DNA of 64,000 nucleotides from Hormiphora californensis (lineage: Eukaryota > Animalia > Ctenophora): the NCBI GenBank assembly GCA_020137815.1, contig CM035360.1, positions 7,006,001 to 7,070,000 on the forward strand, given 5' to 3'. How positions within the stretch are numbered: position 1 is the stretch's first letter; each line of letters opens with the position of its first letter. Below the pieces are notes generated by a model. The model saw nothing but the letters and a program-made list of their open reading frames with translations. It searched no databases and was not told the origin of the DNA. This document shows, one piece after another, positions 9,301 through 54,372 of this stretch. The translations under genes were made by a program, and so were the position numbers.

Positions 9301-10877
9301 AAAAACCATGGTATCAAAATGAACCTTAGACGATTCCAATGAAACTCTTGTAAATTTCAAATCATTTTACCCATTTGTTGATGACACGTGATCCCCTCGA
9401 AAATGCTGGTTGAATTTCGTCTTTAGACAGTCATAAGACACTCTAAACATTGAGCTAGGATAAAAACCCGGGTATCAAAATGACCGCCAGACAATTTCCT
9501 ACAACTCTTATGAGGGATGCAATGTGATCCGAGCAACTTTGCATTTGTGAATTTTTCAAAACGTGAACCCCGGTCGGATTTCATGAACACGTAATTTTGA
9601 CTTTACGACGATATATCTGACGATTGGTAAGACTTGGAACGTCAATCTTGCCACCAAAATGTTCGCCAGACAATTCTCTAGAACACTGGTTTTTGTTAGA
9701 ACCATTTTGACCAATTTTTCGATGAGTTTTGGTTAGTTTAATGGAGCCCGGTCATGACCCAAAATCGCAGGTGATGCAAAGACAGTGGGACACCCTGTAC
9801 TAATGAAGTTGGACATTTACCTTTCACGGCTTGTACCGTACTTGCTTTGAGTTATCCCACTTTGAGTACTTCCAATTTTACATGTCCCCCCTCCCAGGCG
9901 GAGAGGACTGTGAGGTTACATTCCAGAATGCCACTATGATCAAATGTGAAGTGGGAGCTGGAGAGGAGAACATGAACATCCCTGTTCAGGTAAAATATTG
10001 CATGTGTTTTATCAGGAACCGACCTGCCGACCGAACCAGGAAATACTGGTCCCTGATTGGCTTATAACCAGTCACGTGACCTAAATAACGAGTTCTGATT
10101 GGTTGTTTACTTGTTTCGGTCGGTTCCTGTGTTTTATCCATGTTTTATTATAGTGTTTTTATTTGTAGCACAGGTTTAGATAACTCTGTCTGTAGATTTT
10201 TTTAGGTTTGTGGCAACCAGGATTTTAGATTTGCCACCTGGATTGATATATTGACAGTAACATTATTTAATCAGGAAATACTGGTCCCTGATTGGCTGAT
10301 AACCAGTCACGTGACCTAAATAATGAGTTCTGATTGGTTGTTTACTTGTTTCGGTCGGTTCCTGATATTGACAGTGACACTATTTAATCAGGTGTTGGTG
10401 GATAACTGGGGTCACAGTAACTATGATAAGCTGGTGAATTATACCATTACAGCCACTGCCACCAGTCCTTCTACTGTTACAACTACTGTACTGGGTGGAC
10501 CTACCATTACCATCCAGGGGTCTGGGTTCCTACAAGGTAATATAGAACTAGACCCCCCCCCGGCCCTTTATACCCAAACTAAACTTTCTCTTTTCACTTT
10601 TTGCATGGAGCTGGGGTGGGAAGAGGAAGTGTTTTCATGATCCATGGCTGGTATCCAAACACTTCAATTCCTGTTTCAACGTTTCTAGTATCAGATTTCC
10701 TGTCCTAACCCCCCTCCCACCCATCAGAGGGTATGAACGTGTCGGTATGTGATGAGCTTGTAGAGTACACGTATACATCTAACAGTGAGATCTCTCTCGC
10801 AACACCTCCCTGCTCTGACTGTAGCTCCTGTTCTAATAACCTGTGTAACTGCAACATCAAGGTACTGGGAGAATGTG

Positions 10878-10968
<91 letters not shown>

Positions 10969-13900
10969 TTTCTCAATTTCCAATTCTCTTACATCACCCT
11001 CCTTGTCTCACTAACTCTCCTTGTCTCACTAACTCTCCCCTCTCTATCAGATTGTTACCGACTATACCGACGAGACACTTTACAACAAGATCACTTACAG
11101 CACCGCCAACACCCCAACCATTACCAACATCAATCCAGACAATGCCGGTACTGGCGGTGGAAAATCTGTAAGTGGTTAAATCTGCACGGAAACGTGCTCT
11201 CAGTTGGTTAGCTATTGTAGTAGAGTATGTTTGATCATGGTAACAGAACTAGTGGTAACCATGGTAACACAACTAGTGGTAACCATGGTAACACAACTAG
11301 TGGTAACCATGGTAACACATGCCTTGTTTTTCAGATCACCATAACAGGAACAGGATTCAGCAGTGAGAAGACAGATGTGGCTGTCAAATTTGATTCAGTT
11401 ACCTGCGTTGTTCAGTCTTCAACCACCACACAGGTATGCTTACTTACTTACCTCTCAGTCTCTATTGTGTTGTCTTCTTTCCTCACTTCTTTCACCCATA
11501 CTTCATCTCTGTCTTTCCACTTAACAATCCAGACTCGCGTCCACCCGCACCGCCAGTTGAAAAGGACGAGAAATTTAGTTCCCCTGAACAGTAACAACAA
11601 CTCTCCCCTTCAGATTGTTTGTGAGACGGGAGCCAAGGCTGACTTATCCAACAAGGATGGAGTTGAGGTTAGGATTAACGAGGGTCTGGTTGACAACCCT
11701 GATAATCACACCATGACCTACATGGACAAGTGGAGTTCCATCTACACCTGGGGTGGCAGTGAGGAAAACAAACCGGTGGCGGGTGATCTCGCTGTGCTTA
11801 CCGAGGGTACGTAGTGACGTTGTGTGGTTATGATCCCCCCACCCGATCTTTAGAAATAATTTACTTCCCTGACTATCTTGAACCCCAAAAGTACCCCGAG
11901 ATTTAATCCTCACCATATCCCCCTACAGGTCAGATAGTGTACCTAGATGAGGACACTCCCCTACTGAAGGCCCTCCTGTTGAGGGGTGGTCACCTTATAT
12001 TTGATGATAACCAGGATGTCATGTTGAAGGCAGAGTACATTCTAATCCTAGGAGGGGGATCAATCACGGTTAGTAGAGGGAATCTGTCGAGCATCATATA
12101 TATGTGGGACCCTTTCGGCCCTAGTCTTACTTCTGGTCGTGACGTTCTGGACGGGTGGTTCTGACAGTAACAGCATCATCAGATGTTCATTCTCTCCCCC
12201 TGCTAGATCGGTTCAGAGGAAGTTCCATTTGAGCACGAGGCAGTCATTGAGATGTACGGTAACCAACAATCTACTGAACTACCAATGTATGGAGCCAAGA
12301 CCCTTGCTGTTCGAAACGGTACGTGATAAGAAACAGCCATCTAGTTTTGCTTTTTTAGAACGGTTCACTTTATCTAAACATCGCCACCTGGGCGGTAGAG
12401 ACAGATGTTCACATCTTGTCCCCCGACAAATAACCAAGTTTCTCATCTCCCAATCACCAAGTATCTCTACTCCAATCACCAAGTATCTCTCCCAATCACC
12501 AAGTCTCTCTCCTCCAACTACAGGTACAGTTGAGATGCACGGCAAGGAGGTGACACCAAGATGGACAGAGCTGGGAGACACGGCCAATGCTGGGGATACA
12601 CAGATCACTGTGGATGGGGAAACCAACTGGAAGGTATTATAAACGGTCGCTTGCTTGTACCGAACTGCACCACTCTGTTCCCACTTTTCTAAACTTCTAA
12701 CTCCCCCTATCCAGCTCCTTACCGATCTTACCACCCCCATTCTCTTCAGGTGAATGACCAAATAGCCATCTCTTCCTCTTCGTTCTCTCCTGAAGAGAAC
12801 GAGGACTTCTACATTACCGCCATTAGTTACAACAGTGGGACTAACAAGACTTCAATCACCCTACACACAGCCCTGCAGTACAAACATATCAGTCTCACCC
12901 AGACTATTCGGGGCCATACTATCCGAACTGCTGCAAAGGTGAGAGGGAGTAAGGGGACCTGTTGTATGATTTGCTGGACTATTGGAATCACAACTTTTCA
13001 GGAATCATAGCTTCCTGGAAGCTCTCCAAACTCCCAAACAACACCCACCCATTTCTAATTTTCTCCCCTATTCCCCAGATTGGTCACCTGACCCGTAATG
13101 TCAAGATGAGGGGTAATGTGAATACTGACCATCTAGAGGCTGTTGATGCATGTCCCCAAACATGGGATCCCGATCAGTTTGCAACACAGACATGTTTCCA
13201 GGGCCGATATGGTAGGTTGTCTGTTCAGGGAATTGCTGTTTTGGAAGACTGTCTAGATTCCCTTCAAACAAATTATTCATGCTTCCCCAGTTCCCCTGTT
13301 TCTGGCTGATGTATCTGATAAATCCCATTCCCTTCCCAACTCTAAGATTGATCCCCACTCTCTCTCCAGGTGATACACTTGACAGTGACGAATTTGGTTC
13401 CCAGATCATGTTCCACGCTGCTGCCATGCACACCAGGGAGGTCCATGGAAGGTTGGAGAATGTGGAGTTTAGTTGGGCAGGCCAGGCCTTCAGGTTGGGT
13501 CGGTACCCCATTCATTTCCATATGAACGGAGATGTCAGCGGGAGTTATGTCAAGTGAGTGTTATCAAGCCTTCTTGAGTTGACACCACTATTTCAAACTT
13601 TCAACACTAAAATTGATTTGAATTAGCTTCCCTCAGTTTTTTATCACCAAACTTCTCTACTATCCCCTGCTCACCTCTATCCCCTGCTCACCTCTCTCCC
13701 AACTATTACAGGGGCTGTGCGGTGCATCACACCTTTAACCGGGCTGTAACAGTGCACGGTGTGGACAACCTACTGGTCCAGGGTAACGTGGCCTACCATA
13801 ACATGGGACATGCCTTCTTCTTAGAGGATGGAGGAGAGGAACACAATATATTCGATGGGAATTTGGCTATCTTCACCATGAGTAGTTCCTCTCTACTGAA

Positions 13901-16900
13901 TGTAGATGTCACACCTGGTAGGTGGTTATAATAACCATAAGTCATAGCCATAGTAACCACTGGTTATAATGCAGTAGCTGTATTATAAAAAGGGGGTGCG
14001 GTTGTTTGTAGCTGTGTAGTGTTAGGAAATAGGAATTAGGATCTTGACTTCGGGAATCAAGCACGAGAGACATGTAATGGGTTGCAAATGAAGTTGAGCC
14101 ACCTAATTATCTTCACCTCCTTCCCAAATATAACCACCCTCCTATCACAGCATCATTCTGGATTGTGAACCCCCAAAATACCTTCACTAACAACGTGGCT
14201 GCTGGATCCACCCACTTTGGGTTTTGGTTTAACATGCCCCAGAACCCTGGTGGCCCATCTGCCACTACCACGGTGTGTCCCAGGAATAAGGGTCTGGAAC
14301 TGTTCAAGGGCAACGAGGCTCACTCCTGTGGACGATACGGTGAGAAGATAGTCGATTAGGGATTCACAGTTTAGTTCAGAGTCTAGAATCTATCGTTTTC
14401 GCACCTCACTTGTTTTTTGATAAAGTTACGGATAAAGATAGGATAGGAAAACCATATACATCACCTGCAGGTATCTGGGTGTGGGAGTTCTGGCACCCTA
14501 AGGGAGATGGAAGCTGCGGTGCTACCGGTATCAACATGACCACTATGTACGATTTCCATGGGTGGCACAACCTCAGGGGTGTCGAGGTCGAGGATGGTAA
14601 GTTACCATAGCAACAACAAAACTGATATAGCTAGTCATCATATTGACACATCTTCTCTCCCTTCTTATCCCCTTCTGATTCCCCTTCTGATTCCCCTTCT
14701 GATTCCCCTTCCTAATCCCTTCCTAAACCCTTCCTAATCCCTTTTTATCCCCTTCCTAATCCCTTCCTAACCCCCTCTTCTTATCCCCCTCTTCTTATCC
14801 CCCTCCAGGTAGTGGTATCAACATGGACGGGTTCCTTCTTCACGACAACTTCATCTCCAACATGGAGGTTCACAAGTGTCTGGAAGGTAGCTTTGAGAAT
14901 GGAAACACCAGGGTGAGTCCTTCTTTTATCCTCTTAACAATTCTCAAAATGTAGGCTAGACAGTAGACAGTAGACAAGATAAAATGATGAATAATTATGA
15001 ACAGCACCCAGCTAACCTTCCCTCTCCCTACATAGATGTCCAACTCTGTTCTGTTTTCCAAGACGGCCTCCTCTGACGGCCTCTCTCTGGGGTACTCTGG
15101 TGCCTTCTCGTGTAGTATGGGGGTTGGAGTTCCCTCAAGGGGATCCTTTACTGTTGATAACGCAGAGTTCCATGACTTCACCTCCTGCCCCGTGTTTGAG
15201 GGTTGTGTCGGGTGTAGGATATTCAACTCTAAACTAGGAGGTAAGCAGATCTGCACATGGGTCAGTGCAGGACACCCTGTACAATATGTCACTGGATGTG
15301 TGCATTTCAAGATAAATTATACTCCTCCATAACTCAATAATCTCTCCTTACTCCCCTTATTACTCAACAACTTCATCCTAGGTTTCCTGATCCACACTAA
15401 CAACTTTTCAGGTTTCCCCAGTCAATACAAGGGTATCCAATACTTTAACAGTCCAGTAAAGGCCAGTTTTGGGGCCAAGTTTGAGGCCATTATGGAGGAT
15501 CTGGATGGTACCCTGACTGGCAATGTCGGTGGGGTGGCTACACCTAACAACAACCTCCTGGACAAGTCTAGTTGTACTGTACAGGCTGAGTGGTCTGATG
15601 GAGTGGAGACTGCAACGTGTGATAGTAATGTTAGTAGATACATATCTGTATCTCTCTTGTTTTTATATCTCGTACTCCCTCTCAAGTCCTTGACTTAGAT
15701 CTAATAACCCCATACCCTATATTCAACTAACAACCCCCTACTCTAGACCCTATAACCAACTAATAACCCCCTACCCCCTAACCAACTAATAACCCCCTAC
15801 CCCAGACCAAAATGATGCGAATCAGTTGGAACAAGCCCAGCAAGCAGAGTCTCATGTTCAAGGATGTGGATCTGACTAACGAACACGGCACTGAAATAGT
15901 GCCGTGGTTCTTTAAGAGGTTGACCCACAAACAGGGGTGGATGGCTACCGTGCCTACCGGAGGTTAGTTATTAAATGGGGATAAACAATAATGGGACTAC
16001 ACAGTTTTAGTGAAATCAGGACTTGTCAGCCGTCAATGTTGGTTTCTCTTAGAATATCAATCTTGCTCCAAACACCCTCTCAATACTTGAATTGTTAGCC
16101 CCGTTTTGAACTAAATACAGTCTGCACACTCATGCCCCCCCCCTTCTCCCAGGATCAATTGAGATGAAATATGTTAACCACGATACGTTCACCAACGCTT
16201 CCTACGCCATGTCTGCATACTTCCCTACTGAGGGAGATCATTTGATCATCAAACAAGTCCTACTCAGTGTAAGTATCACATGACCTCTTTCTTATGACGT
16301 CACACATGACGTCACATTATTGTTATCCCGACCTCTTCAAAACATACTTGCTACAGATGACATTACCCTACTCCCTTTCTCCCAGGAACCTGACTTCATT
16401 ACTGTTGGTGGTGCCTCTAACAAGAAGGAGGGAGATATAGTTGGGGCAACTGATGACGCAGGAACCTTCACCTGGAATAACGATACCAAGACACTCTCAT
16501 ATCTCATCACAGGTATGCTGCATGCATGTAGAAAACAGTCCAAAAATCTCACGGTTGTATTCTTGTAGAATTCTTATACTGGGTGTTCATTTTGGATCTT
16601 TACAAGCGTTGGCCTTCACCCAGAAAAAATTTGACAAGATCAGGTCATGAAACTTTATACTTGGACCATTCTATACCCTCATTCAAGGTTCCTGGGGGTT
16701 TTGGAGCTCTAGCACCCCGGGAAGTGTGTTTTTGGCATCAAAACTACCAGAAGGAATTTTTTGCTGGTGCTGAGACTTTGCTAAAATTTTCTATGTCAAT
16801 CCTAAAGTTTCATAGAGATTGGATGTGTTTTTCGGACTCAAAATTTCGATAAAAGTGGCTGGAAAGGCTCGAAAACAGCTCAAAAACGGCTAAAATTGAG

Positions 16901-19900
16901 TCTTTCCAGCCACTTTTTACGAAGTTTTGATTCTGAAAAACACATCCAATCTCTATGAAACTTTAGGATTGACATAGAAAATACCCAAAAAAACATTTTA
17001 GCAAAGTCTCAGCACCAGCAAAAAATTCCTTCTGGTAGTTTTGATGCCAAAAACACACTTCCCAGGGTCCTAAAGCTCCAAAACCCCCAGGAACCTTGAA
17101 TGAGGGTATAGAATAGTCCAAGTATGAAGTTTCATGACTTAATCTTGTCAACTTTTTTCTGGGTGAAGCCCAACGCTTGTAAAGATCCAAAATGAACACC
17201 CTGTATCATGGTAACATTATCAGATATATCTCAAACATGCCCCCCCCCCCCCCCAGGAAAGGGTCGAGATGAGAGTCTGGAGATGCCCATGGATCTTAAG
17301 GTGTACCGATGTTACTACAAGGATTGTATCAACCCCAACCCACAACCCCTTCCTTCCAATCCTACCATTCTGCAAAAACCCGATAATGTGAGTGCTCCTT
17401 CATAAACCCAGCATTCTCGCTCCTTGCTCCTTCATAAACACAAATATTGTCCTTTTCTTGCTCCTGACACTCCTTCATGAACATAAGCATATATTCTCTC
17501 CTTGCTCCTTTATCAATATTTCTTCTCTCCAGCCCAAGAAGTGGTCACTCTCCTCTGACTGGAAGGGGACTGAGGAGGGATGGGGTGGTCACGGTGGCTA
17601 CCTACCCAAGGCAGGGGAGGATGTACAGATCCCCAATAACTGGTGGATGATTTATGATACTTCCATGGAAGGCCTTGGAAATGTAAGAATTTCATTTGAC
17701 AGATATGTTTCCATGTTTTATCCCGGTGCTAACTGCTATGATTCTTTAGTGAATCAATCCAATATCTCCGATCATAAACTCCCTGCCATACTAACCCACC
17801 CACTCCTTCATTAGATCTGGGTTTACGGTGTACTGGAGTTTTCTAACGAAGAAGACACTCTCCTGGCTGCCAAACGGATCATAGTGGTTGGAGGGAAGAT
17901 AGTTTGTGGATGGAAGGATGATCCTCTGAAGGTCAAGGCAACTATTAGACTGACCGGAGATCCGCTGGCTGATGAAGAAATGATGTTACCTGATAACACT
18001 ATCATCGGGTTCAAGGTAACTGAGACATGATAATAGCAGACCTGCCATGGGCCTGAACCTCCTATTCTAGAACCTAGCACGGTCTCAATGTGAGATAAAA
18101 TGATTCTAGCGATCACTGCTAGTTGAATGTTTGCTAATAGTCCCTCTCTTCAGTCGCTCACAGTTGCTGGGTTTGTTGAGATGCACTCTGAGCACCCCTG
18201 ACACTGTGTGGAGTACCCTAACAGAGAAGGCATCCAAGGGTGCCACTACCATTGTCGTAAAGGACAACATTACAGGATCAGTGGCAGGTAAGTGTACTGG
18301 GATCATTACTGGGTTGTTGCTTATCCTGATAACTGAGTACTTCTTATATATCCGTATGTTTTTAAAAACTTGAAAAAGTTGCTTTTTCTCTAAATAATAA
18401 CTTAATTCTTCTTCAGGTTGGTGATGAGATTGCCATAGCGACAACATCTTTCATTCCCTCTGAAGCAGAGAAGAAGACTATTACTGCAGTAGCAGGACAT
18501 ACTATCACTCTCGACAGTGCACTGGAACATGACCATGATTTCTTCGAGGAGGAGGTATGAGTAGAACCTTCATTTATTGAGGGGTGGGACGTGGGTAGAG
18601 TAGAACCTTCATTTATTGAGGGGCGGGTAGAGTAGAACCTTCATTTATTGAGGGGTGGGTAGAGTAGAACCTTCATTTATTGAGGGGCGGTGTTTTTAGA
18701 GATAGATGGGAAATAATGGCCAAGCATGACATGTAACCCTCCTGATCCGACCCTACCAGGTGAACGGGATGATGTATACTAGGACTGCAGAAGTTGGCCT
18801 CCTAACCAGACTTATTACTATTGAGGGAGACACCACAGATGCAGGTACATCCCTTTCTTTTTCCATCTCTTTCTCTCTGATCCGACCAGATGTAATGTAG
18901 AGTATACTGTTGGCCGGATCATTTCCCCCCAGCCCACCCCTTGAGTACTGTTATACTTTTATCACCTTTATACCCAATCTACAAAACCACCTGAAATGGA
19001 CACAGTGTCAGACGACTAAACTGACTTGCCTAGCTAGACTGTGTTTCGCACGCCCCGAAACACAAATGTAAAGGGAGGGTTAGATAACAATAAACTGACA
19101 CCCGTTCCCAGGACACGCTAAGGAGATTGGAGCACGAGTTTACTTCAGTGACTACAGCCAGGTAGTGGATGGGAAGCTCCAGGAGTATATCCCTGTTGCA
19201 CAGATCGCTGGGGTGAGATTCAGGAACACTGGACAGAAGAACTACCGAGACTTCTTCGATCCAAGGTGAGCTATATTGGGGTGAGGGGATCCTAGGTGAA
19301 GTATATAATGTTATGGACAAGCGGCCCCCCCCCCCCCCCCCGGACAAGCGGGGATACCCATTTTACCGAGATTGGATAGGGTACAAACCTATAATCCCGG
19401 TATGATATATGAGATTCTAATTTCTAAAGTATATCATTCACTATCTTCCTGTCTTGCAGGTACACACTAGCCCTTGAGAATGTGAGTCCAACTGATACCA
19501 GCTACGTCAAGTCGTGCTCTATTGATACTGGGTATAACCACGGTATTGGGGTGCTGGGGAGTCACAATGTTGATGTTGCAGACAATGTCATCTATCATAA
19601 CATGGGATCTGGAATCATTACCAACAGTGACAACGTGAGTTGTTGTTGAACACACGTCTTGTGAACTTGAATTATGCAGTTATTGATTATTGTCACAGAG
19701 CACACGACACAATTTTGGACATTTTTGTTATAACTTTGCGGATTTACTAACCGTCTCCTCTCTCTTCTAGACACGTATTACTGACAATGTTGGTATCTAC
19801 ATGTTGCACTATGGGAACTATGAGGACCCCCCTGAGAAGGATAACTACTACGTTGATGGGTGTATTGATTCCTATAGAACACCAAATGCAGTCCTTATCG

Positions 19901-22900
19901 TGAGTTGTTCAACATTTCCCAGTTCACAATATCAACTAGCTTGTTTTCAGTCAACTTCTGCCACTTGACCTTACTTGACAATGTCCCACATGTTCTACCA
20001 TGTAATGTTTACATGGCATCACAAAATGTGACCATACAACTAGTTAACAGCTCTCTCAATTTAACAGGGAAACAGGTGTGGTGGGGGAGAGAAGGGATGT
20101 TTCGTCACTCAGGGAGAATCCAAGACGTCTAACGTGTGGAAAGATAACGTAGCCCATAGTTGTCTCTGGGGATTCTTTATTCGAGAGTAAGTTAATGAAT
20201 TGCCTTGCTCCACCAGCTGTTTCACCTGTCAGGCCAATGGGGTGGGGCAATGACCACAGTTCTTTGAAAGAAATGAGAATATGGTCAGGTCAATGCACTG
20301 ACAGTGTTTCACCTCACGACGAAAGGTAAAGAAGGGTTATAACATAACAAATTAATCACCGTAACCTCTTTTCCGAGCTCATATAATATCTTAATAATCT
20401 TAATTTGTGACACAATGGTGTGAGATATCATTCGGGTATTTGAACAAAATGAAAGACACCAACATGATACCAAAACCATATACCTTGTCTTACTAGTTAC
20501 TATGTAGTAGTAATCTCATATAAACCACCCCCCCTGCTGATATTTCCCGCAGTCTACTATGGTATATCAGATAATTCCCTCCCGCTGTTGTCAGTACCCA
20601 TTCACACCTTTCATAATTCCGGGGGTCGGTTTATAACAAATAACCACGGCTAGTAAAGTGATGAAATTTGATAATCCCCTACGGGGATTATCACACGTTC
20701 TTCCTCTCGGTCGCTTCGCTCCCTCGTGGAGAACTAGTGATAACCCCCTCCTGCGTCGGGGGTTATCAAATTTCATCCCTGCACTAGTACTAGCCGGGGT
20801 TATCTATATTATATCGTGTCTTACTCTCTCTCAGGTCATCGAACTCGGAGAGTAAGCTGAATGCCGTGCAAGTATGGCAGAATTACGACTACGGAATTGT
20901 TACCTGGGGTGGATCTTCTCTGAATATCGTTAACAGTGTTATTGCTGATAACGGATTCAGTGTTCTACCTCTCATCTTTGGACCTAACCCTCTAACGTGA
21001 GTGTTGTTACACGTTTATTTACCATGGTTACACGTTCAGTTACCATGGTTACACGTTCAGTTACCATGGTTACACGTTCAGTTACCATGGTTACACGTTT
21101 AGTTACCATGTGGTTACACATCCAGCAACCCTGCATGGTTACACATTATAATAACAAGAATATATGTTCCTATACAGGCACGAGCTGACAGACAAGTATG
21201 TGAAGTATACCGATACCCTGATATACGGAAGGAGACCTGATGGGGCATGTGACGAGAGGGACAACAATAAACCTCCCTCTGCATTCTTAACTGGAATTGG
21301 ACGTTTCGCTCCTACAGGAGGTACAATTACCAATTAATTAGATTCATTACCAATTAATTACCAATTAATTAGATGTTTCATCTTGAATTGTCAAGCGACT
21401 CAAGTTTCATCTAACTAAATTCAAATGTTTACCCTGTTTATATCAACTGACACATGTTTGACACATGTGTTAACCCTGACACACGTTTGTAGCTAACGGA
21501 GGATATCTTGGCATGTACCTGAGTAACTTCTTGGGAGGAAAGACAGGGTGGCCCAAAATGTCCATCCAGGGACCTCACTCCTACACTAGCATCAAGGGGC
21601 TGACTACCATTAGTGGAGTCACATACGCTAGGTAGGGACGACTATTCAGTTGTTGTCTGTTATAAGTGACTACAATCATTTTCAAATAGAGTTTTAAAGT
21701 TCAGAACTAACTTCTTTCCTCCTCTCTAATTCCCCACTCTCTATTTACCCAGGTTTGACCGGTGTAATGACATAGCCATAATGGACCTGAAACTTAACGG
21801 AGACTGCAACCACCCTACCAACATGGAGAAGATAAAGTTTAGCAATGTCAACATGGACTCTGGATTCCTCAAACAGAACAATCCCCAGTAAGTAGCTGAT
21901 TTGTATTGAGATTACCAACCGAGCTTCTCAGAAGAACAGAATCTTCTAAAGATAATACATCTCATTATAAAACTTTCTTGTTTCAAATTGTAAAGAAGAG
22001 GACTTGATTTATTAGTCACCCTAATTCATCTCGTACTCCCACCAGGATTGGTTTTGTTAACTCTGCGGATTGTGTTGACATGCCGTGTGATGCAAAGAAG
22101 AAGACCCTTATAACCGATATGGATGGTAGCGTCCTTGGAAAGGTATGTGTGTTGTAGGAAGATGTCTCATTCATAGGGTTATAAGGGCTAACAACACAAA
22201 ATACATGTGCCTTGTGGACAGATTCTCTGAAGTTTGAACCCCTTCATCTCCCACTTCCCAGCTGATTCACACACTACCCCTCTCAGGCGGGAATGACGCT
22301 AATATCCAAGTCTGAGTTCCAGTGGGGCGGGGAGAAGAAGTGGGGAATGGATAACAGTAGGCTGCCTAACAAGATGACAACCTACCCTAATGGATCCTTT
22401 GTGACCGCTGACGAAGTGTGGCCATATAAGGGAATTGATAGGAATGGAGATGTACGTACCTCATATCTTCTCTACATGTTTTGTTATTATATCACTAGTT
22501 GTTCCTATCCGTTGTTGTTGGGACCGCATCAGCTCCTATTTTCCCTCACTATTATACCGTGTGCGGCAAAAAAAATCCCCCCCTAGACCACCATAGTTGC
22601 CGATGTGGTGGAGAGCTGTAACTTGGCAGGGTTGCTCCACTATGTCTATCTTGATCCTGACAGAAAAATCAGAGCTCTAGCTCAAAATTCATTTTCATGA
22701 ACGGAATGAACATTGTCATTCATTCCAGGAAAAAATATTTTCCAGTTCAAAATTTAACCAATTATGTTTGGCTATCGATTAGCTTTCCAATGTGACCAAG
22801 ATCAGCTAAATTGGACAACCACAAGAGACACAGTGTCATGTTTCTTAAAGTTAGTCAGGTCATGTGATCTTCACTGAATCGTTGATCGTGTTCAGTATTA

Positions 22901-25900
22901 CGAATTGGTCTAAGTGGTAGAGAATCACGTATCACATCTGCTAATGAGGGATGACGATGCTGATTGGTCATCAGATCTGTAGCTCTTTGATAAATGTCCT
23001 CTTTCCTCGAATCACATCACCCTGTATTGGTACACATACCCAATTAGCGGCCATGATACGAGATTCCTTTGCCCATTGGCCCGATTAGCAATCCCGGAAA
23101 CTCAACGATTCGGTGAAGATCACATGACCTGACTAACTTAAAGCAACATGACACTGTGTCTCTTGTGGTTGTCCAATTTAGCTGATCTTGGTCACATTGG
23201 AAAGCAAATCGATAGCCAAACATAATTAGTTAAATTTTGGACCGGAAAATATTTTTTCCTGGAATGAATGACAATGTTCATTCCGTTCATGAAAATGAAT
23301 TTTGAGCTAGAGCTCTGATTTTTCTGTCAGGATCAAGATAGACATAGTGGAGCAACCCTGCCAAGTTACAGCTCTCCACCACATCGGCAACTATGGTGGT
23401 CTAGGGGGGGGATTTTTTTTTGCCGCACACGGTAGCTAAATCCCAATTTCTCACACGAGGGTGAAACTAACACACTTTCAATGTATTGTAGACGGCGTGT
23501 GAGTGGAAGAGTAGCTACAACATGTACCAGTGTGAGAATGCTGTGTACAAAATGCTCGTTCTAGAGAGTCTCGACGGTGACACAGAGGTACGTGCCCATA
23601 TATGGTATTGTTACTGTCACGTGCTACATGCCCATATATGGAGTTATCCCCCCTAACAGGTCAGGAGGTTGTCACCCATTGCGGTTGCTACAGATGATGG
23701 CTCAGTAGATCTCCTCAATGGGCCCATGGATCACGGCTGGTGTGGAGGGTACACGTGTCAACAACGTATCTCTACATTCTACGCCTTGGTGGTCATGAAT
23801 AAGGAGTACAAGATTTATCTGACTAGCACCCAGCCACAATCATTCAGGTAGGATGCAGTTAGATTTAGGGAGTACCTTGTTGGGTAAAGAATAATCCCTC
23901 TCTCAACAAGGAGTACTGGGATTATATGATGATCATCTTCAAATTAGAGATTTCAATGTCAATAGTTGGACGGTCATCGGTGCCTATTACTGCAGATACG
24001 AGGATAACTTTGTATCACCTTTACTCATAACCCCTCATCTTACAGGTACCTTCTGATTGATGCCAAGGCCTCCCAAAAGATCAAGATTAGTGTGTACTAC
24101 ACTAAGAACCAGCGACTGGATCTCTACTACAAGGGCAAATACATCCCACCTACTAACGCTCAGGAGACATCCCCTGGACAATACTCATATGCAACAACTA
24201 AAACTGTGGAGGAGCTCACACCCAGCCTCAGTGACGCTGTGGGAACTAACTTCTTCGATACATCATCTCACTTTATGCAGATTATTATGAATGGGGATGA
24301 TGCATTCACCATCAAGACGTCACCTAAGGTAGGTCCATTCCACCTCTATCCCTGGATCATAGAGACACCATGACACCGGTATCTGTAATATAAAAAACTA
24401 CAAAGGGCGATCAACTATGCCTAATCCAGTATACATTAGTCTTGGTTACGAAATAACCCCTTCGTGCGTGCTGGCAAGGGGTTACTTCGTAACCAAACAT
24501 TAGTCATAGTCCTCCAACATTGATTGAGTTTATCGACCCATTGCCCATGCTCACTGCCCAGCTCAGTAGAGCTCACCCGCCCTCCCCCTATCAGGTGGTC
24601 CTATCTCTAACTGTCGATGTTGTGGGTGATGCTGACTTCTTTGATGAAGACAAGATTATTGACAACCTCGCAGCTCTTCTTGGAATAGATAAAAGCAAAA
24701 TCAAGATCGCCAACATTGTCAAAGAAAGTAAGTTCACTAGATACACATGGTATTGGATGCAAATATTAACCAGTTGTTGGATTGACACTATACTGTCATT
24801 GCATACTAAATCATACTACCTAAATGACGTCATACCGTCTAAATGACGTCACACCGTCTAAATTGCGACCTTCTTGTACAAAACTGGTGACGTAATAGAG
24901 CTTCTTCTGTTTCAGGTCGCAGAAGGAAGCGAGAGGGTATTGATCTTCAGATAGAGATTAGTGAGCAACCTATTGCTGATGAGTCAGAGATGAACGTTAC
25001 CAAGGTAACTACCACTACAACCCCAAACTTATAATAGCCCCGAAATTACACGAGCTCTGTTTGTCACAAAACAAACCCACAATTGTGAACTCTTGCCTTA
25101 TCATAACCCGGCCCAACTTCCCTTGTCTACCAATTACTCCCCACAACCAATTACTCCCTTATCATTACTCCCCACAACTTCAGGTAACTGAGATGGCAGA
25201 GGCCCTCACCAAGGTATCAGAGAAGTTCGTAGAGACTGTGCAGAAGGGAGAACTGGCTAGTGCCCTGGATGTAACAGTAAAGAGTGTTGCTATTGAAATG
25301 CCTACCATACCACCTGTTGATCAACGAAGTAAGTTGTGGAGATACGATTACTGCTGACTCTCTTAGATTTGTGTTCTTCGCTAAATGTCCATGATATTTC
25401 CCCCCGCTAAACCACCTCCCCCCTCCCATTAATCCCCCCCACTAAATCACCCCCCCCCCCCGCACATTAATCCCCCTACTAAACCCCCTCCCCCCGCCCA
25501 TTAATCCCCCCACTAAACCCCCTCCCCCCCCTCAGACGAGACTGTAAACCAGGAGGAAGCTGAGAAGCAGACTGGAGAGCTGTTTTCAGTAAAACAGGAG
25601 AAGGAAGCGGCGGCTGATTTATCAAACCAGGCCTCCATAGCTGTACTCATACCTGACTCTTTCAAACTGATCAGCTCCAATGCGGTGAGAATATTAATCG
25701 CTCATGTCTGTGAGATAGATATTACTTGAATAGGATGATAAAATATAAAATTTAGTGGAGGGACCAATGCAAGGGATCTCTCACAGCCTCCCCCATTTAT
25801 TATTCAAGTATACCTACATCTAACACCATCCAACACCCTCTCAGTCGGTACGAATGTTGAGCAACCTGCAGCTCAAGTCCAAGGTCCTTACCTCGGACAG

Positions 25901-28596
25901 TCAGATAGTGCAGCTGCTAGGTGCAGGTGACAACAAATGGAGGGCTACTGTTAGTGTTACTGAGGGCCCCAAGAATGGCAGGTTGCTGGGAACTGATGAG
26001 GTTACATTCACACTGGGTTACGGAAACCTAACTGATATCAGGTGGGTTGTATTTGCCTAGCTCGATCCCCCCTTTTTGTGAGCTCCGACAAATGTAAAGG
26101 AGGGTTAGAACATAACAAGGTTGTATCAATACATTAATACAATACATTGATACAATACATTGATACAATAGCCCCAACAGTAGACTTGAATAGCTCCAAA
26201 AGTAGACTTTTAATTGACTGGAAATCAACACCCCCCCCTCTCCAGGCTGTCTAGGAAGGGTAACTACAAATTGAAATTGAAGGTCACCCACCCTTCAACT
26301 GTCAACCATGAAATCAATGACATCGAGGTAATCAGACTCGATTGCAAAAAAAAACATCTACGTTCGAATAAACTGTTCCCTATTTTCCGGCTATTCATAT
26401 TCCCTTGAAATAATTCCCTTCTGCCAGGTTGAAGTTATTGAGCAAGATGAGAATAGTCCCCACAGACGTATACAACTCAAGTTCAATGCCGACTACTCCA
26501 CTATTGTAACGGATCGAGATGGTAAGAACTGCAGCTAGTTGGAAAGTGGGCTATTAAATTTCCAAATAGGACAGCTAGGGTAGACGATCCCTTCCAGTTA
26601 TAGGACTCCTATACCTACTACTATAATAGTATATGAGTCATATAACTGGAAGGGCGCTATAATAGACAATCCCTTCTGACTCCTTGTTCAGAACTCACAA
26701 TATATTTCCATCTTCAGATTTCACCTCCTATATGTCAACCTTGTTGTCCACCAAGTACCCCGACTACAAGTTTGAGGATGTTGATCACTATGAGGGATCA
26801 CTGATTGTCGAGGCTACCGTATCTACATCTACCTCAAACAAGGATGGTAGGTTAACACGGGGGTTATAGACCAATTAGCAGATCTACCTGGATCTAAACC
26901 ATGGCTAACCTTTCACCCCCACTAGATACCTGCAGATCTAAACCACGACTAACCTCTTGCCCCCCCCCCCCATTCCCCTCATTACCACCCCCTCCCCAAC
27001 TAGATACTGATGCTGCTGTGAAGAAGATGAGTAGTGATATTGATACTGCTGGATTCAAGATAGAGTACAATGGAGCCTCTGTTGACATCTCTGACTTTGA
27101 TGGAAACGGTAAGAATATAACATAACATGACGTCACTGTCGTGAAATGTGACGTCACATGACATAACATGACGTCACATAACATGACATGTCACATGTCA
27201 CATTTCACGAACAACACAGCCACCTCAGTGGAAACTTTTCATGAGTTGAGGTGGCTGACAGTAACTTACTGAGTTAGTGTATTTCCCTCCCCTCCTTTTT
27301 GGTCCTCCTCCCCCATATGAACCCTTCTAATGTCTACAGAGGTGGTAATCCCCGAGCCTGAACCGGGCACTGAGGATAATGGAAATGATGGGTGTAAGTG
27401 TAGAGAGAAACTCTTTCTTAGAAAGAGGAGCTGGTGTATTTAGATAGTACTGTCCAGGAACCGACCGAATCAGGAAATACTGGTCCCTGATTGGCTGATA
27501 ACCAGTCACGTGACCTAAATAACGAGTTTTGATTGGTTGTTTACTTGTGTCGGTCGGTTCCTGGTACTGTCCGTTACACACAGAGAGAGAGAGAGAGAGA
27601 TCAGGGTTACTTCTCTCTCTCTTTGTTTGGTTGCCTGTGATATATGCTGGGGTTTTATGTGAAACCGTTTTGTTGGTACCTTGGTCCCTCCTTTACTGTG
27701 TGAAAGAGGTACCTATTAGGTACCAAACCGTTTGGGGATTGTACGTGATGTTTCCCATTCCAGTTGCCATCCACTATCTCTCCCCAACTAACACTCCCCC
27801 CTCCTCTCTCAGCTGACGGTGGTGGTGAGGTGAACACGGCTGCCATTATCATCCCTATCTTCATGGTACTGGTTATCGGATGTATCCTGGTTGTGGGTCG
27901 ATACCTTCAGGTACATGTCACATATCATTGATACATGTCGCCAGATGTCGTGCAGTAGATCTCATCCTCTGGACTTGGGCTCTCTATTTTTCTAACTGTG
28001 TGCCCCTATTTTATATCCATTTATTGATATTTCAGGTGAGAAAGAACAGGTCCAGGGTCTCTGAGATTCAGGTTTTGGAGATGGATCAGAAAAAGAAGAA
28101 TCCCACCACAAAGTATGTTGCAACCCGTTAGTTCTCTTTAGAGTTTAGTATCCGCCTTTAGAAGTATTTAATCCCACTTTTTATTATACATCTAAAAGAT
28201 CCCTCTCCCACAACCCCTTTCCAAGAACCCCCCTCCCCCATATCTGAGCTAACTCTTCCTCCCCTACTTAGTGGTGATGAAGAAGGAGGGAACGTGTATC
28301 ACAACCCCAGTGCTACCAAGATCTGTGAGTATGAGGATTATTACGAGGAGCCGCTAGATAACCATGACTACCATGGTTACCACGAAGACGATGGTTACCA
28401 TGGTTACCAAGACGATGGTTACCATGGTTACCACAATGCTGCTGACCCCGTTACTGTTCATGTTACTAATGGGGCTGCACCTCCCCGGAAAAAGAAGCCC
28501 TCCTCTGAACTGCGAACCACAACAAGTGCTGTCACCGCTGAACCTAATACCTCTGCCATCGCTAGGGTTGCAGGTAGAGCTGAGCGTGAATTGTGA
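3369..28596 (+). CDS. PKHD1L1: Fibrocystin-L / PKHD1L1-like giant type I membrane protein (multi-exon; 5' part lies upstream of the window)
   Basis: GT-AG exons translate to repeated IPT/TIG domains (e.g. 3684-3915 TPTITNV..IDGSGF..CTVVSATNDKITCKI), G8 domain 1 (WSSIYTWGG..PVAGD..VYLDEDTPLLKALLLRGGHLIFDD), PbH1/TMEM2-like region (AGQAFRLGRYPIHFH, HHTFNRAVTVHG, FWIVNPQN..NNVAAGSTHFGFW), G8 domain 2 (~17533), DCVDMPCDAKKK, LNGPMDHGWCGGYTCQQRISTF, furin-type ESRRRKR (24727/24916), TM helix AIIIPIFMVLVIGCILVVG (27840-27898) and last exon 28272-28596. Orthology to PKHD1L1 versus PKHD1 is not resolved. Confidence 0.9.
4905..4997 (+). mobile_element. Truncated copy of the 109-bp hAT-type MITE
   Basis: Matches the full copies from AGGAACCGACCGAA to GTTTACTTGT; right TIR missing. 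Confidence 0.85.
5018..6582. mobile_element. 1.56-kb foldback / non-autonomous Tc1-mariner-like element
   Basis: ~750-bp near-identical inverted arms around a ~57-bp spacer (5769-5825); ends TA|CAAGGTGGCCC ... GGGCCACCTTG|TA. Confidence 0.9.
6602..7213. mobile_element. Unclassified 612-bp element with a cloverleaf left end, flanked by TATA
   Basis: Three hairpins closed by ACTCCCTCCC/GGGAGGGAGT (6609-6769); internal TAGACCCCGCTGGC pairs with terminal GCCGGCGGGGTCTA; removing it restores atgatatattcttttatttgga, also present at 4881-4902. Confidence 0.75.
7280..7388 (-). mobile_element. 109-bp hAT-type MITE
   Basis: TIR CAGGAACCGACCGAA/TTCGGTCGGTTCCTG; 8-bp TSD GTTGTATC. Confidence 0.92.
8598..9797. 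mobile_element. ~1.2-kb foldback element, mariner-type TIR (CAGGGTGTCCC)
   Basis: ~365-bp inverted arms around a ~460-bp unique middle; right end ACACCCTG|TA; outermost bases of the left end are lost. Confidence 0.85.
10013..10129 (+). mobile_element. hAT-type MITE (109-bp family, 8-bp internal duplication)
   Basis: Same TIRs; 8-bp TSD TGTTTTAT. Confidence 0.92.
10269..10364 (+). mobile_element. Left-truncated copy of the 109-bp MITE
   Basis: Right TIR intact; sits between two copies of atattgacagtracaytatttaatcagg. Confidence 0.85.
10879..10967. repeat. (TCTG)n microsatellite, intronic
   Basis: About 22 perfect units. Confidence 0.97.
11236..11318. repeat. 24-bp minisatellite containing X-box-like GTAACCATGGTAAC
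   Basis: Three full units plus a partial one. Confidence 0.9.
16579..17203. mobile_element. 625-bp palindromic MITE, Tc1/mariner-type
   Basis: TA|CTGGGTGTTCATTTTGG ... CCAAAATGAACACCCTG|TA; arms extend almost to the centre (~16880). Confidence 0.9.
19026..19090 (+). mobile_element. 65-bp micro-element (TTGCCTAG...GGAGGGTTAGA..TAACAA family)
   Basis: Flanked by direct repeat TAAACTGAC; internal hairpin TGTGTTTCG/CGAAACACA. Confidence 0.7.
20632..20813. mobile_element. ~180-bp cloverleaf (multi-hairpin) element
   Basis: Outer stem ataaccacggctagta/tactagccggggttat, inner stem gatgaaatttgataa/ttatcaaatttcatc, three hairpins including GCTTCGC (GCGAAGC on the minus strand); TATA at both ends. 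Confidence 0.7.
21018..21118. repeat. 21-bp minisatellite containing X-box-like GTTACCATGGTTAC
   Basis: Four to five units of gttaccatggttacacgttca. Confidence 0.9.
22557..23432. mobile_element. 876-bp foldback element with TA TSD
   Basis: TA|CCGTGTGCGGCAAAA ... TTTTGCCGCACACGG|TA; ~330-bp arms, ~220-bp middle. Confidence 0.9.
26053..26118 (+). mobile_element. 66-bp micro-element (same family as 19026 and 36771)
   Basis: TTGCCTAG...AAAGGAGGGTTAGAACATAACAA; 8-bp TSD GGTTGTAT. Confidence 0.75.
27455..27563 (+). mobile_element. 109-bp hAT-type MITE
   Basis: Same TIRs; 8-bp TSD GTACTGTC. Confidence 0.92.
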
Positions 28597-29237
28597 TGTT
28601 TGTTTGTGTGTTTGTTTGTGTGTAGGATCATTATAACTACCTTCACTTGTTCTTGCTACATGTTTGCATTGTCAGCATTGCACAAGGAGCTTTACTAGCT
28701 CTTAGAACTCGGTTCAATCGATAGACATATTGTTGTATGGTGAATGGGGTATTGCCTTGTCTTAAAACTCCCATCCCCAGTCCACGGAGTAGAGGGTATC
28801 AGTAATCTCAGGCGACGATGTACGTGTGTAACGCATGTGCATCTAGTCTTGTAGACATTTTCATTTATAATAGGTCATGCTAAAAACGAAAATAACATTC
28901 AGAAATACTGTCTGTTTGATTATTTCCTTGATAATTATTGTCCCACTGATTTCATTGATTTATGTCCTGAAATATTCCTGTTGCAGAGGATCCCGGTGCA
29001 TTTATTGCTAGCCTCTGGAAATAAAACAGAACACATTGATTGTGCAATTGAGCGTGGTGATTATACTAGCATCCCTAGTTAATTAGCATAATCTCCCATT
29101 AACTAATTAGTTAATTAGCATCCTCTCCAATTAACTTATTAGTTAATTAGCATCACTCTATCAGCAACTTTACATGTTTCCTAATGTGTTCCTAACTAAA
29201 GCCCCCTCCTTCTCCTACACATTGTGCAGCACTACAA

Positions 29238-31117
29238 ATGGTATGGGGAGCGGTTAGTCGTCGAACCAGTGCCTCACATTATACTCCCATTGACACCAAC
29301 AAGTTCGAGGATTTCGTGTCACGTGACAATCTCGTGACAGGTAACGGGCATGTGTAATTAGGCCGGTAATTAGGCTTGTGATTAGGCTTGTAATTATGCC
29401 GGTAATAGGATTACTGGTATTTGATTCAAAAAGCTATTTGTTGAGTTCAAAATGACTACCAAATAATTGATTCCAGCAGCAGTGACCAGTATTTGGAACT
29501 GTCCAATGGAGACAGTTCCAAAGATTAGATAGACAGTCCATCTAATTTAAATCTTGACTCTATAATTTGAGGTAGCAAATAATTGTGTGTGACTGTGAAA
29601 TTAAAGTAATGTGATTGGGTAAAACTAAAGTGTAATTCGTAAATTGTGAATAAATTGTAATTGGGTTTCGCTACCGCAAGCTGATTCGCTAATTCCTCCA
29701 TTTTGATACCCCGCTAAAAGCAGTCTTAGCTTTCCTTAACTATTTCCCGATTCCCTAACTCTCCCTGCAGCACCCCTATCTATAGCACCCTCTAACCTCC
29801 TCTGGCCCCCTCCTCTCTAACCTCCCCTATCTATAGCCCCCGGCCCCCCTTATCTAACACCCCTCCCCCTCCCAGAGTGCACTGCCCCCCTTCTAACACC
29901 CCTCCCCCTCCCAGAGTGCACTCCCCTATCTATAGCCCCCTTCTAACACCCCTCCCTCCCAGAGTGCACTATAGCCCCCTTCTAACACCCCTCCCCCTCC
30001 CAGAGTGCACTGCCCCCTTCTAAAACCCCTCCCTCCCAGAGTGCACTATAGCCCCCTTCTAACACCCCTCCCCGTCCCAGAGTGCACTCCCCTATCTATA
30101 GCCCCCTTCTAACACCCCCTCCCCCTCCCAGAGTGCACTACCTATCTATAGCCCCCTTCTAACACCCCCTCCCCCTCCCAGAGTGCACTATAGCCCCCTT
30201 CTAACACCCCTCCCCCTACCAGAGTGCACTACCTATCTATAGCCCCCATCGAACACCCCCTCCCCCTCCCAGAGTGCACTATAGCCCCTTCTAACACCCA
30301 GCTCCCCCTCCCAGAGTGCACTACCTATCTATAGCCCCCGCCCCCCCCCCTTATCTAACATCCAGCTTCCCCTCCCAGAGTGCACTCCCCTATCTATAGC
30401 CCCCTTCTAACAACCAGCTCCCCCTCCCAGAGTGCACTGCCCCCTTCTAACACCCAGCTCCCCCTCTCAGAGTGTGCACTATAGCCCCCTTCTAACACCC
30501 CTCCCCCTCCCAGAGTGCACTACCTATCTATAGCCCCCTTCTAACACCCAGCTCCCCCTCCCAGAGTGCACTATAGCCCCCTTCTAACACCCCTCCCCCT
30601 CCCAGAGTGCACTACCTATCTATAGCCCCCTTCTAACACCCAGCTCCCCCTACCAGAGTGCACTATAGCCCCCTTCTAACACCCAGCTCCCCCTCCCAGA
30701 GTGCACTATAGCCCCCTTCTAACACCCAGCTCCCCTCCTAGAGTGCACTGCCCCCCTTCTAACACCCAGCTCCCCCTCCCAGAGTGCACTCCCCTATCTA
30801 TAGCCCCCTTATCTAACACCCCTCCCCCTCCCAGAGTGCACTACCTATCTATAGCCCCCTTCTAACACCCAGCTCCCCCTACCAGAGTGCACTATAGCCC
30901 CCTTCTAACACCCCTCCCCCTCCCAGAGTGCACTACCTATCTATTATAGCCCCCTTCTAACACCCAGCTCCCCCTCCCAGAGTGCACTACCTGCAATGAA
31001 CTGAAGAACACATGGCCCTGTCCCATCTGTGGAGCGGCAAGATACTGCAGTAGGGAGTGTCTAGATAGAAACTGGGCAGCACACCATTCTACATGCAGAC
31101 CTCGAACCAAGCCATAG
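29238..31117 (+). CDS. Small MYND-type zinc-finger protein (coding exons 29238-29340 and 30981-31117; ~79 aa, further upstream exons possible)
   Basis: Phase-1 join gives MVWGAVSRRTSASHYTPIDTNKFEDFVSRDNLVT-E-CTTCNELKNTWPCPICGAARYCSRECLDRNWAAHHSTCRPRTKP*, matching the MYND pattern Cx2C-x8-Cx2C-x5-Cx3C-x7-Hx3C with the typical YCS and W. Confidence 0.8.
29775..30992 (+). repeat. ~35-60-bp-unit minisatellite (~25 copies) built from the 3' splice site of the MYND exon
   Basis: Unit: ctatagcccccttCTAACacccctccccctccCAG|AGTGCACT. Confidence 0.95.
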
Positions 31118-31210
31118 AGGGTGCAGTATTACTGTCACAGTGGCAGTGACAGTTTAGTGCGTGTGTGTGTCAGCGAGATGTATTTTCACAGGACACAATA
31201 TATTATTTTA

Positions 31211-31650
31211 CTAGATCCAAAAACCAAACAAGTTTGGTGGATAGCCGGGGCCGCAGAAATTAAAAAACGTGCGAAAGTTTTGATACATGAACTTTCGGGG
31301 CCTGGGGTGCTGTTAAATTCGCGTTTCCATGATTATAACCAATAACATTTTCAAACTATACGCCAGGAAAACTAGTGCAATGATCAAACCATTAATTTAT
31401 TCCACATTATCACATGTCACATCCACACATGTCACATATATTTACTGTGCACAGTGGGTCGTTTCAGAGTCTGTTTTACAGAATAATATTATTATGATAA
31501 TAGTGTGTTTTGAAAGAACGGCTGACTATCATGGAAACGCGAATTTAACAGCACCCCAGGCCCCGAAAGTTCATGTATCAAAACTTTCGCACGTTTTTTA
31601 ATTTCTGCGGCCCCGGCTATCCACCAAACTTGTTTGGTTTTTGGATCTAG
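31211..31650. mobile_element. 440-bp MITE with TA TSD
   Basis: TA|CTAGATCCAAAAACC ... GGTTTTTGGATCTAG|TA; ~123-bp arms. Confidence 0.9.
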
Positions 31651-31769
31651 TATCAGGCATTTTGTTATACTATGACATGCTGCATGCATTTTGTAATACT
31701 AGCTTAATTTAATAAACGCGGATTGAGGATTCGCAGACTTTTTAAATCGTAGGTACTTATAGGTAGCCT

Positions 31770-32110
31770 CATAATAATCGCAGATATCCAATCTCGGATA
31801 TCAATCGCGAATAACTTATATCATAGTAATCGCCGACAACCAATCGCGGATAACTTAGCAGTTATCAATCCGTTATAAGCTATCGCGATTAGCTATCGCG
31901 ATTAGCTATCACGATTAGCTATCGCGATTAGCTATCTGCGATTAGCTATCCGCGATTGGTTACTATTATATTACTTATTTCGCGACAAGTTATCGTGGTT
32001 AGTTATCCGCAATTACAATTGGTTCTCCGCGATTGGTTCTCCGCGATTAATCTATGATTTTGATTATTAGTCACGGATAATGATCACGGATAAGCATGAA
32101 TAATCAGATA
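31770..32110. repeat. Inverted array of short ATCGCG(G)ATAA / TTATCGCGATT units
   Basis: Degenerate ~11-13-bp units whose orientation flips near 31865. Confidence 0.7.
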
Positions 32111-32114
32111 TATC

Positions 32115-48926: not shown

Positions 48927-49073
48927 GAACTGTACACAAAGCTGCTGAAGTTACCTGCCTCTCAGAATTCTGCTGTTTTAATTGGACTGAATTTATTAAC
49001 TTGTTAGTCAGAGTTACATTGCCCTTTTTGACACACATGTACTGGACAGTTTTATCTACAATATCTCATTGTT

Positions 49074-49179
<106 letters not shown>

Positions 49180-49272: not shown

Positions 49273-54372
<5,100 letters not shown>

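What the first reader, a model, noticed from the sequence alone, without database searches (positions are those of the whole stretch)
29775..30992. A 1.2-kb satellite of ~25 complete 3' splice sites in front of a MYND zinc-finger exon
Seen: each unit carries a CTAAC branch-point-like motif, a C-rich pyrimidine tract, CAG and the first 8-12 nt of the real exon (AGTGCACT[ACCT]). Only the last copy (30980) leads into the MYND finger. The common upstream unit reads E-C-T-I-A-P-F-stop. Known: 3' splice site choice normally favours the first AG after a branch point. Inference: this organism must skip ~24 near-perfect decoys (strict exon definition or structure), or the array is a copy-number-tunable attenuator feeding NMD, or the gene is inactivated.
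Basis: partly seen in the sequence, partly recalled or inferred. Interest (0 to 1): 0.8.

Follow-up and report, generated by a model that had tools for sequence, protein, structure and literature searches.

The report
Comb-jelly acceptor mirage before MYND exon
In what is likely a comb-jelly gene for a large fibrocystin-L-like membrane protein, the splice signal in front of a zinc-finger exon is copied 25 times head to tail, and RNA assemblies from sea samples show only the final copy in use, so the repeat is likely a tolerated duplication of a kind known from lancelets and human genes, while a separate splice choice further upstream likely decides whether the protein keeps its zinc finger.

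Summary
The array is real as described: 25 acceptor copies (29876-30981), 24 decoys plus the working one before a zf-MYND exon. The host is a fibrocystin-L-like gene, 96% identical in one exon to a Pleurobrachia bachei model. RNA contigs of 4 of 4 runs (3 studies) enter the exon only at 30981, but from donor 28324, not 29340. That junction makes a UAG just before the finger, and would do so at all 25 copies. The gene is alive: 6 of 7 differences in the exon are silent, and a distant relative carries the finger in frame. So a longer isoform likely supplies it. The repeat belongs to the amphioxus 'mirages' and the human F7/CBS/IFI6 junction minisatellites. Four more acceptor duplications lie in this window, and earlier scan notes report the class elsewhere in this genome. 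An NMD attenuator and a dead gene are not supported. Open: the RNA comes from other animals, whose array length is unknown.

The parts
29771..29875 (+). Degenerate left edge of the array, with an extra acceptor-like site (CTAAC, pyrimidines, CAG) whose exon would start at 29771 and stop after 16 codons
29876..30980 (+). 24 decoy units, 36-64 nt each: 4-12 nt of exon start, short spacer, branch-point-like CTAAC, C-rich tract, CAG/TAG. 21 distinct sequences among 24 units; no two neighbours identical
30981..31117 (+). Working acceptor and MYND exon coding part (44 codons from 30983, stop 31115-31117); only GAAGA(A) between 29341 and 31117 is at 31003
31118..31212 (+). 3' UTR seen in RNA; three runs continue at 33138
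28272..28324 (+). Short form of the tail exon; donor GTGAGT at 28325 is joined to 30981 in 4 of 4 runs; junction codon T+AG = stop
28325..28573 (+). In-frame extension of the tail exon (83 codons without stop), phase-1 donor after 28573; one X3 contig covers 28409-28566 and joins it to the 28987 exon
28987..29024 (+). Alternative last exon, 12 codons then stop; MYND-less
   Evidence: (table 8, record 14)
29230..29340 (+). Predicted exon (37 codons, open, phase 1 at both ends) that would link the long tail to MYND; not covered by RNA contigs
27813..27910 (+). Exon with a hydrophobic, transmembrane-like stretch (read by eye) of the host gene; both flanking introns bridged in RNA
7809..27393 (+). 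Upstream part of the host fibrocystin-L-like gene (TIG 7809-7970, G8 11931-12068, CEMIP beta-helix 13713-13916); its 5' end was not mapped

Best explanation
The array is a minisatellite of 25 copies of the intron-exon border of a MYND exon, RNA contigs join only the last copy, and it is likely a tolerated 'mirage' made by local duplication whose decoys are likely ignored because only the last copy is followed by real exon sequence. Shown: anatomy; use of 30981; the donor at 28324; the UAG at that junction; silent bias in the finger; an in-frame finger in a relative. Inferred: (1) origin by slippage or unequal exchange, helped by the likeness of the intronic CAC-CCCT at 29771 to the exonic CACTACCT; (2) choice of the last copy from the exon side (purine-rich enhancer sequence, last-exon definition) after the intron has grown to 2656 nt in a gene whose bridged introns have a median of 169 nt; (3) the finger is made by a longer isoform (28573, exon 29230-29340, 30981), so the switch between tails with and without MYND is a donor choice and not a function of the array.
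For: Junction 28324 to 30981 in 4 of 4 runs, 3 studies, none laid on 30870-30980. Contigs run unbroken across the junction (762 and 1219 nt records). Purine fraction +13..+42 is 0.57 after the working copy and 0.20-0.33 after 24 of 24 decoys; 0.40-0.77 after 15 of 15 RNA-bridged acceptors, five of them placed one base off. 12 of 24 decoys lack the extra AG that the working copy has between branch point and junction, and 4 of 24 match its last 28 nt exactly, so the intron side does not mark the winner. The same layout occurs at four other acceptors of the window, each with only the last copy in an open frame, one in a thiolase gene. Mirages are reported not to disturb splicing (PMC3087553, PMC3902484). 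Long introns weaken the upstream-acceptor preference in human data (PMC9225289). Long isoform: 6 of 7 differences silent, P about 0.001-0.002; relative P0079 has MYND in frame, 26 of 43 identical; the six residues before its finger match the end of exon 29230-29340 better than all but 9 of 2761 stop-free peptides before a GT; 83 open codons against 0 of 1949 overlapping intron windows.
Against: The RNA is from other animals, which differ structurally here (3 of 4 runs lack 31213-33137) and may carry a shorter array or none. Contigs drop rare forms, and only the last three units were laid. No contig shows 28573 or 29340 joined to 30981. The linker between the membrane stretch and MYND does not align with the relative beyond its end (168 of 1000 shuffles as good; exon 29230 alone 274 of 1000), and the six-residue match was picked after seeing it. 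In human data an upstream acceptor is generally preferred. The enhancer role of GAAGAA is recalled, not tested.
Confidence: 0.78

Rival explanations
1. Copy-number-tunable attenuator: decoy acceptors divert transcripts to premature stops and NMD.
For: With a G-leaving donor, 24 of 24 decoys stop within 4-27 codons. Human IFI6 and CBS arrays do use one or two extra sites (PMC1557585). Decoy use would lengthen the 3' UTR by up to 1.1 kb.
Against: With the donor seen in RNA, 25 of 25 acceptors give the same stop. No splice joint was seen after the MYND stop in 30870-32400, and the one gap has no GT..AG ends, so junction-dependent NMD (recalled rule) has no trigger in the part seen. No decoy contig in 4 of 4 runs. 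The layout recurs in unrelated genes.
Confidence: 0.05
2. The MYND finger is made by reading through the UAG that the 28324-30981 junction creates.
For: This junction is the only one seen (4 of 4 runs), the finger is in frame right behind the stop, and it is under silent bias. The P. bachei gene model uses the same donor and the same acceptor start, in a shifted frame.
Against: Open, in-phase longer exons exist that reach the finger without a stop. The relative's linker of 112 residues fits the long form (130) and not the short. No stable structure behind the stop (z 0.84).
Confidence: 0.07
3. The array is an assembly artefact, or much shorter in the animal.
For: No DNA reads could be laid across it. 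The metagenome scan found no locus of this gene (0 of 5 loci above 54% identity).
Against: 21 of 24 units differ and no two neighbours are identical. The P. bachei model ends in S-A-L-P-V-F, like the decoy reading S-A-L-P-P-F and unlike the exon's S-A-L-P-A-M-N, which hints at a decoy in a second genome (inference). Four similar duplications lie in the window.
Confidence: 0.05
4. RNA structure hides the decoys: each unit starts with an 8-nt palindrome, so units could pair.
For: The first 8 exon-like bases are predicted paired in 25 of 25 units.
Against: The working copy is equally paired. Its YAG is unpaired with P 0.27 (decoys 0.04-0.88) and its pyrimidine tract is the least open (0.07). The thiolase and SAXO-like arrays lack this palindrome.
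Confidence: 0.03
5. The gene, or the finger, is dead.
For: Every MYND-exon contig seen has a stop before the finger.
Against: 14 GT..AG introns bridged among the 15 joints shown. Open frame over 12 exons. 6 of 7 differences silent. In-frame finger in a relative.
Confidence: 0.02

Closest known systems
Amphioxus 'mirages' (Adh3, globin BflGb6/BflGb9, troponin C, PGBD5); PMC3087553 abstract and passages of section 16, PMC3902484 one passage
   Same: Tandem copies spanning an intron-exon border. BflGb6 repeats the 3' end of an intron plus the exon start, as here. Many units keep splice signals. Regular splicing is reported undisturbed. Adh3 units are 10-72 bp.
   Different: 25 copies against 3-6 in BflGb6. 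Only 4-12 nt of exon is copied. The exon carries the stop codon. Likely a ctenophore and not a chordate. Length variation between alleles is not shown here.
Human junction minisatellites: F7 IVS7 37-bp VNTR, CBS intron 13, interferon-inducible 6-16 (IFI6) intron 2 with 25 pseudo-sites, LMNB2, PDGF; PMC1557585 abstract and passages
   Same: The splice site is reiterated into the intron. The copy next to the exon is used, alone (F7, LMNB2, PDGF) or with one or two neighbours (6-16, CBS). Copy number is similar to 6-16.
   Different: Those are donor arrays; this is the acceptor mirror image, with branch-point-like motif and pyrimidine tract in each unit. No mutational test exists here.
Fibrocystin-L (PKHD1L1)-like proteins
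   Same: TIG, G8 and CEMIP-type beta-helix domains. P0078 hits a crustacean fibrocystin-L-like protein at E 1.8e-28. One hydrophobic stretch near the C-terminus.
   Different: A cytoplasmic tail that can end in a zf-MYND finger, also in the unnamed relative P0079. No paper on this pairing turned up (listings only). Orthology was not tested by a tree.

Membership tests
Mirage / exon-intron junction minisatellite | Head-to-tail repeats whose unit spans an exon-intron border | tested here: met
   24 units of intron end plus 4-12 nt of exon start
Mirage / exon-intron junction minisatellite | Many units keep splice signals | tested here: met
   25 of 25 YAG, 23 of 25 CTAAC
Mirage / exon-intron junction minisatellite | The authentic, exon-adjacent site is the one used in mRNA | tested here: met
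   4 of 4 runs enter at 30981; other animals than the one sequenced
Mirage / exon-intron junction minisatellite | No or few aberrant transcripts from the copies | tested here: inconclusive
Mirage / exon-intron junction minisatellite | Length instability between alleles | not testable with these tools
zf-MYND (PF01753) | Profile score above the curated cut-off | tested here: met
   33.8 bits against 22.7; relative P0079 25.3 bits
Fibrocystin-L/PKHD1L1-like | TIG, G8 and beta-helix domains before one membrane stretch | tested here: met
   Pfam hits above cut-off in 3 of 3 upstream exons chosen; membrane stretch read by eye
Fibrocystin-L/PKHD1L1-like | Orthology by phylogeny | not tested
   Only a BLAST-level hit to a named crustacean protein
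Recursive splicing (AG|GT ratchet points) | Each acceptor is directly followed by GT, so that re-splicing leaves no base | tested here: not met
   Units read AG|AGTG; the GT lies one base in, and the junction in RNA has no extra base
Poison-splicing / NMD attenuator | The alternative site gives a premature stop upstream of a later junction | tested here: not met

The most novel reading that the evidence does not exclude
Comb jellies carry a fibrocystin-L-like receptor with a cytoplasmic MYND finger whose common mRNA splices a UAG directly in front of the finger. The finger is then made by readthrough, or by a regulated donor switch in which the length of the 24-decoy array tunes how often the finger-bearing form reaches its acceptor.
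Probability: 0.1. Interest if true: 0.7.

Novelty: new member of a known kind. Interest (0 to 1): 0.3.

Why it matters
The repeat class is known, and the scan's own notes report it in other windows of this genome, so this is one more, fairly extreme, case. Its value is as a natural test of acceptor choice: 24 decoys, 12 of them cleaner on the intron side than the working site, appear to be passed over in a short-intron animal. That points to exon-side recognition in an early-branching lineage and could be tested with junction counts or a minigene. The by-product may be the more useful part: a fibrocystin-L-like protein with a conserved cytoplasmic MYND finger that is dropped in the mRNA form seen here by a splice-made stop codon.

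Tried and rejected
MYND exon against longer proteins by shared words: no candidate (weak, and P0079 was later found by another query). phmmer over 1.84 billion representatives: 76 hits, best single-stretch identity 52%, no close relative. Metagenome scan: 5 loci, 38-54% identity, none this gene; the scan covered 60 of 64 parts. Lack of RNA cover at 29260-29770 in 4 of 4 runs is not taken as proof that exon 29230-29340 is unused. Pieces near 28410-28416 in X1, X3 and X9 lie in a common short repeat and were not counted as support for the long exon. Structure masking rejected. Readthrough structure not found. Recursive splicing rejected. The 31213-33137 gap is not read as an intron: no GT..AG ends, a 3-nt direct repeat at its borders. 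Linker alignment with P0079 not significant. Paper searches that gave no relevant listing: ctenophore + intron + tandem repeats + splice site; VNTR/acceptor terms; ctenophore + readthrough; fibrocystin + MYND; Pleurobrachia + intron + minisatellite, 0 papers; ctenophore + fibrocystin. PMC8724738 passages held nothing of use. Supplements of PMC3087553 (the mirage alignment) were not opened.

Full report
Observation. The array is there. A split at each junction gives 25 acceptor copies with first exon-like bases from 29876 to 30981, spaced 36-64 nt. 24 of 25 end in CAG and one in TAG; 23 of 25 have CTAAC 17-21 nt upstream; 23 of 24 decoys copy 8-12 nt of the exon and one copies 4. The junction 10-mer occurs nowhere else on the + strand of the window. 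Of all YAG sites from 29341 to 31000 only 30981 reaches the MYND frame, which scores above the Pfam cut-off. E-C-T-I-A-P-F-stop is the reading of 7 of 24 decoys. 21 of the 24 units differ in sequence and no two neighbours are identical, which speaks against a simple assembly stutter but does not replace DNA reads.

Host gene and organism. Three upstream exons hit TIG, G8 and CEMIP beta-helix profiles above cut-off; the fourth query, exon 29230-29340, hit nothing. Twelve exons from 25536 to 31117 form one open frame with a hydrophobic stretch at 27813-27910. Exon 24047-24328 found two proteins: P0077 (98%) and P0078 (96%), the second filed as Pleurobrachia bachei. P0078 in turn hit a crustacean fibrocystin-L-like protein. 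So this is likely a Pleurobrachia fibrocystin-L-like gene.

RNA. Ten runs were listed, all with a small share of words; five were laid. All are assembled contigs from environmental samples, so they come from other animals. On 21700-29770, 14 of the 15 joints shown are GT..AG introns, median 169 nt. X2 and X9 leave the window after 28324 and go on with the first 30 bases of the MYND exon (29 further loose ends were not shown). On 30870-32400, X2, X3, X8 and X9 (3 studies) all begin at 30981 with the end of exon 28272-28324 in front, and nothing lay on the decoy units 30870-30980. One X3 contig joins 28409-28566 to 28980-29056, a longer tail exon spliced to an alternative last exon at 28987.

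The junction makes a stop. Exon 28272-28324 ends with one T left over; with the AG that starts the exon it gives TAG, directly before the in-frame finger. All 25 acceptors would give that same TAG. The frame is supported by the open frame through the membrane exon. The P. bachei model passes the same donor and the same acceptor start in a shifted frame and ends S-A-L-P-V-F; the first decoy in that frame reads S-A-L-P-P-F-stop and the true exon S-A-L-P-A-M-N-stop. I read this as a hint that a decoy exists in a second genome; it is an inference from a gene model.

The finger is nevertheless kept. Seven differences were seen in its coding part in X8 and X9; 6 of 7 are silent in the MYND frame (0 and 1 of 7 in the other frames; P 0.0006-0.002 under neutrality), and the seventh changes the last residue. 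P0079, an unnamed relative at 49% identity to P0078, has the membrane stretch, a linker and a zf-MYND in one frame, with 26 of 43 residues identical to this exon; its organism was not determined. Its linker is 112 residues; the window's long form gives 130, and 93 if exon 29230-29340 is skipped. The six residues before its finger match the end of exon 29230-29340 better than all but 9 of 2761 background peptides (27 of 2487 for eight, 18 of 2136 for eleven), a match chosen after seeing it. The linker as a whole does not align (168 of 1000 shuffles as good). The 83-codon extension is open, against 0 of 1949 overlapping intron windows; 36 open codons alone are common (231 of 1996). Best reading: a long isoform through 29340 supplies the finger and was not caught by these contigs. 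Readthrough stays possible, but no structure follows the stop (z 0.84).

How the last copy is likely chosen. The intron side does not mark it: 12 of 24 decoys lack the extra AG that the working copy has between branch point and junction, and 4 of 24 match its last 28 nt. Folding does not mark it either. The exon side does: purine fraction 0.57 after the working copy against 0.20-0.33 after every decoy, and the only GAAGA between 29341 and 31117 is at 31003. That such purine-rich motifs act as enhancers, and that truncated exons weaken duplicated splice sites, is recalled knowledge and untested here. PMC9225289 (passages) reports in human data a general preference for the upstream acceptor that weakens under exon definition with long introns; this intron is 2656 nt. 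NMD is a poor explanation for the missing decoy forms, because the protein would be the same for every acceptor with the donor seen, and no later joint was found in the part laid. The 1925-nt gap in three runs lacks GT..AG ends.

Not special to this gene. Acceptor duplications with only the last copy in an open frame occur at 8140/8186 in the same gene, at 39002/39051/39082 and 40407-40606 (7 copies) in a gene with a weak SAXO hit, and at 49527-49736 (8 copies) in a thiolase gene. These four were picked by eye, not counted against all introns, and rest on reading frames without RNA. Earlier scan notes report the same class in other windows of this genome and gave me the name 'mirage' and the paper; they are leads, not support.

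Known relatives. PMC3087553 (abstract, passages of section 16 and supplement legends) describes amphioxus mirages, including BflGb6 with the intron 3' end plus exon start repeated 3-6 times, and reports no interference with splicing. PMC3902484 (one passage) says the same for Adh, troponin C and PGBD5. PMC1557585 (abstract and passages) lists human donor arrays, one with 25 pseudo-sites. The array meets the anatomical features of this class and the use of the authentic site; allele length variation could not be tested. Searches for a ctenophore case or for fibrocystin with MYND gave no relevant listing; the library lacks most subscription papers.

Verdict. Observation confirmed; interpretation partly supported. 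New member of a known kind, interest 0.3. The splice-made stop in front of a conserved MYND finger is the part worth following.

Noticed in passing
window 49504-49735: Eight acceptor copies (49527-49736, 21-33 nt units) in the first intron of a thiolase (HADHB-like) gene; only the last gives the thiolase frame.
   Followed up: partly
window 40400-40606: Seven AG|GT acceptor copies (mostly 30-nt units) in a gene with a weak SAXO1-2 hit (E 0.005); only 40606 is open in the gene's phase. Being AG|GT, this array could allow recursive splicing, unlike the main one.
   Followed up: partly
window 38995-39090 and 8120-8190: Three-copy and two-copy acceptor duplications; only the last copy is open through the exon.
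   Followed up: partly
window 18554-18690: Donor-side repeat, 32-nt unit about 3 times, echoing the intron start after an exon of the host gene.
   Followed up: no
window 31213-33137: 1925 nt in the 3' UTR absent from RNA contigs of 3 of 4 runs; no GT..AG ends, 3-nt direct repeat at the borders, inverted-repeat elements inside by eye; likely a polymorphic insertion.
   Followed up: partly
window 27340-27393: A 54-nt frame-keeping exon just before the membrane exon is skipped in X3 and X9 (joint 27107-27812) but present in the P. bachei model.
   Followed up: no
window 27454-27560 (also near 4905-5000, 7282-7390, 10018-10130, 44450-44580): A roughly 100-nt element with inverted ends, seen by eye in several introns, with very high contig depth in RNA runs; may be the mini-transposon of an earlier scan note.
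   Followed up: no
window 43290-54373: Fatty-acid oxidation genes lie head to head: a gene read by eye as HADHA-like on the - strand and the thiolase on the + strand, with a short ORF near 48727-48927 between them.
   Followed up: no
window 4880-7480, 8540-9890, 16520-17250, 22460-23480: Long introns of the host gene hold large inverted-repeat (fold-back) insertions, seen by eye.
   Followed up: no
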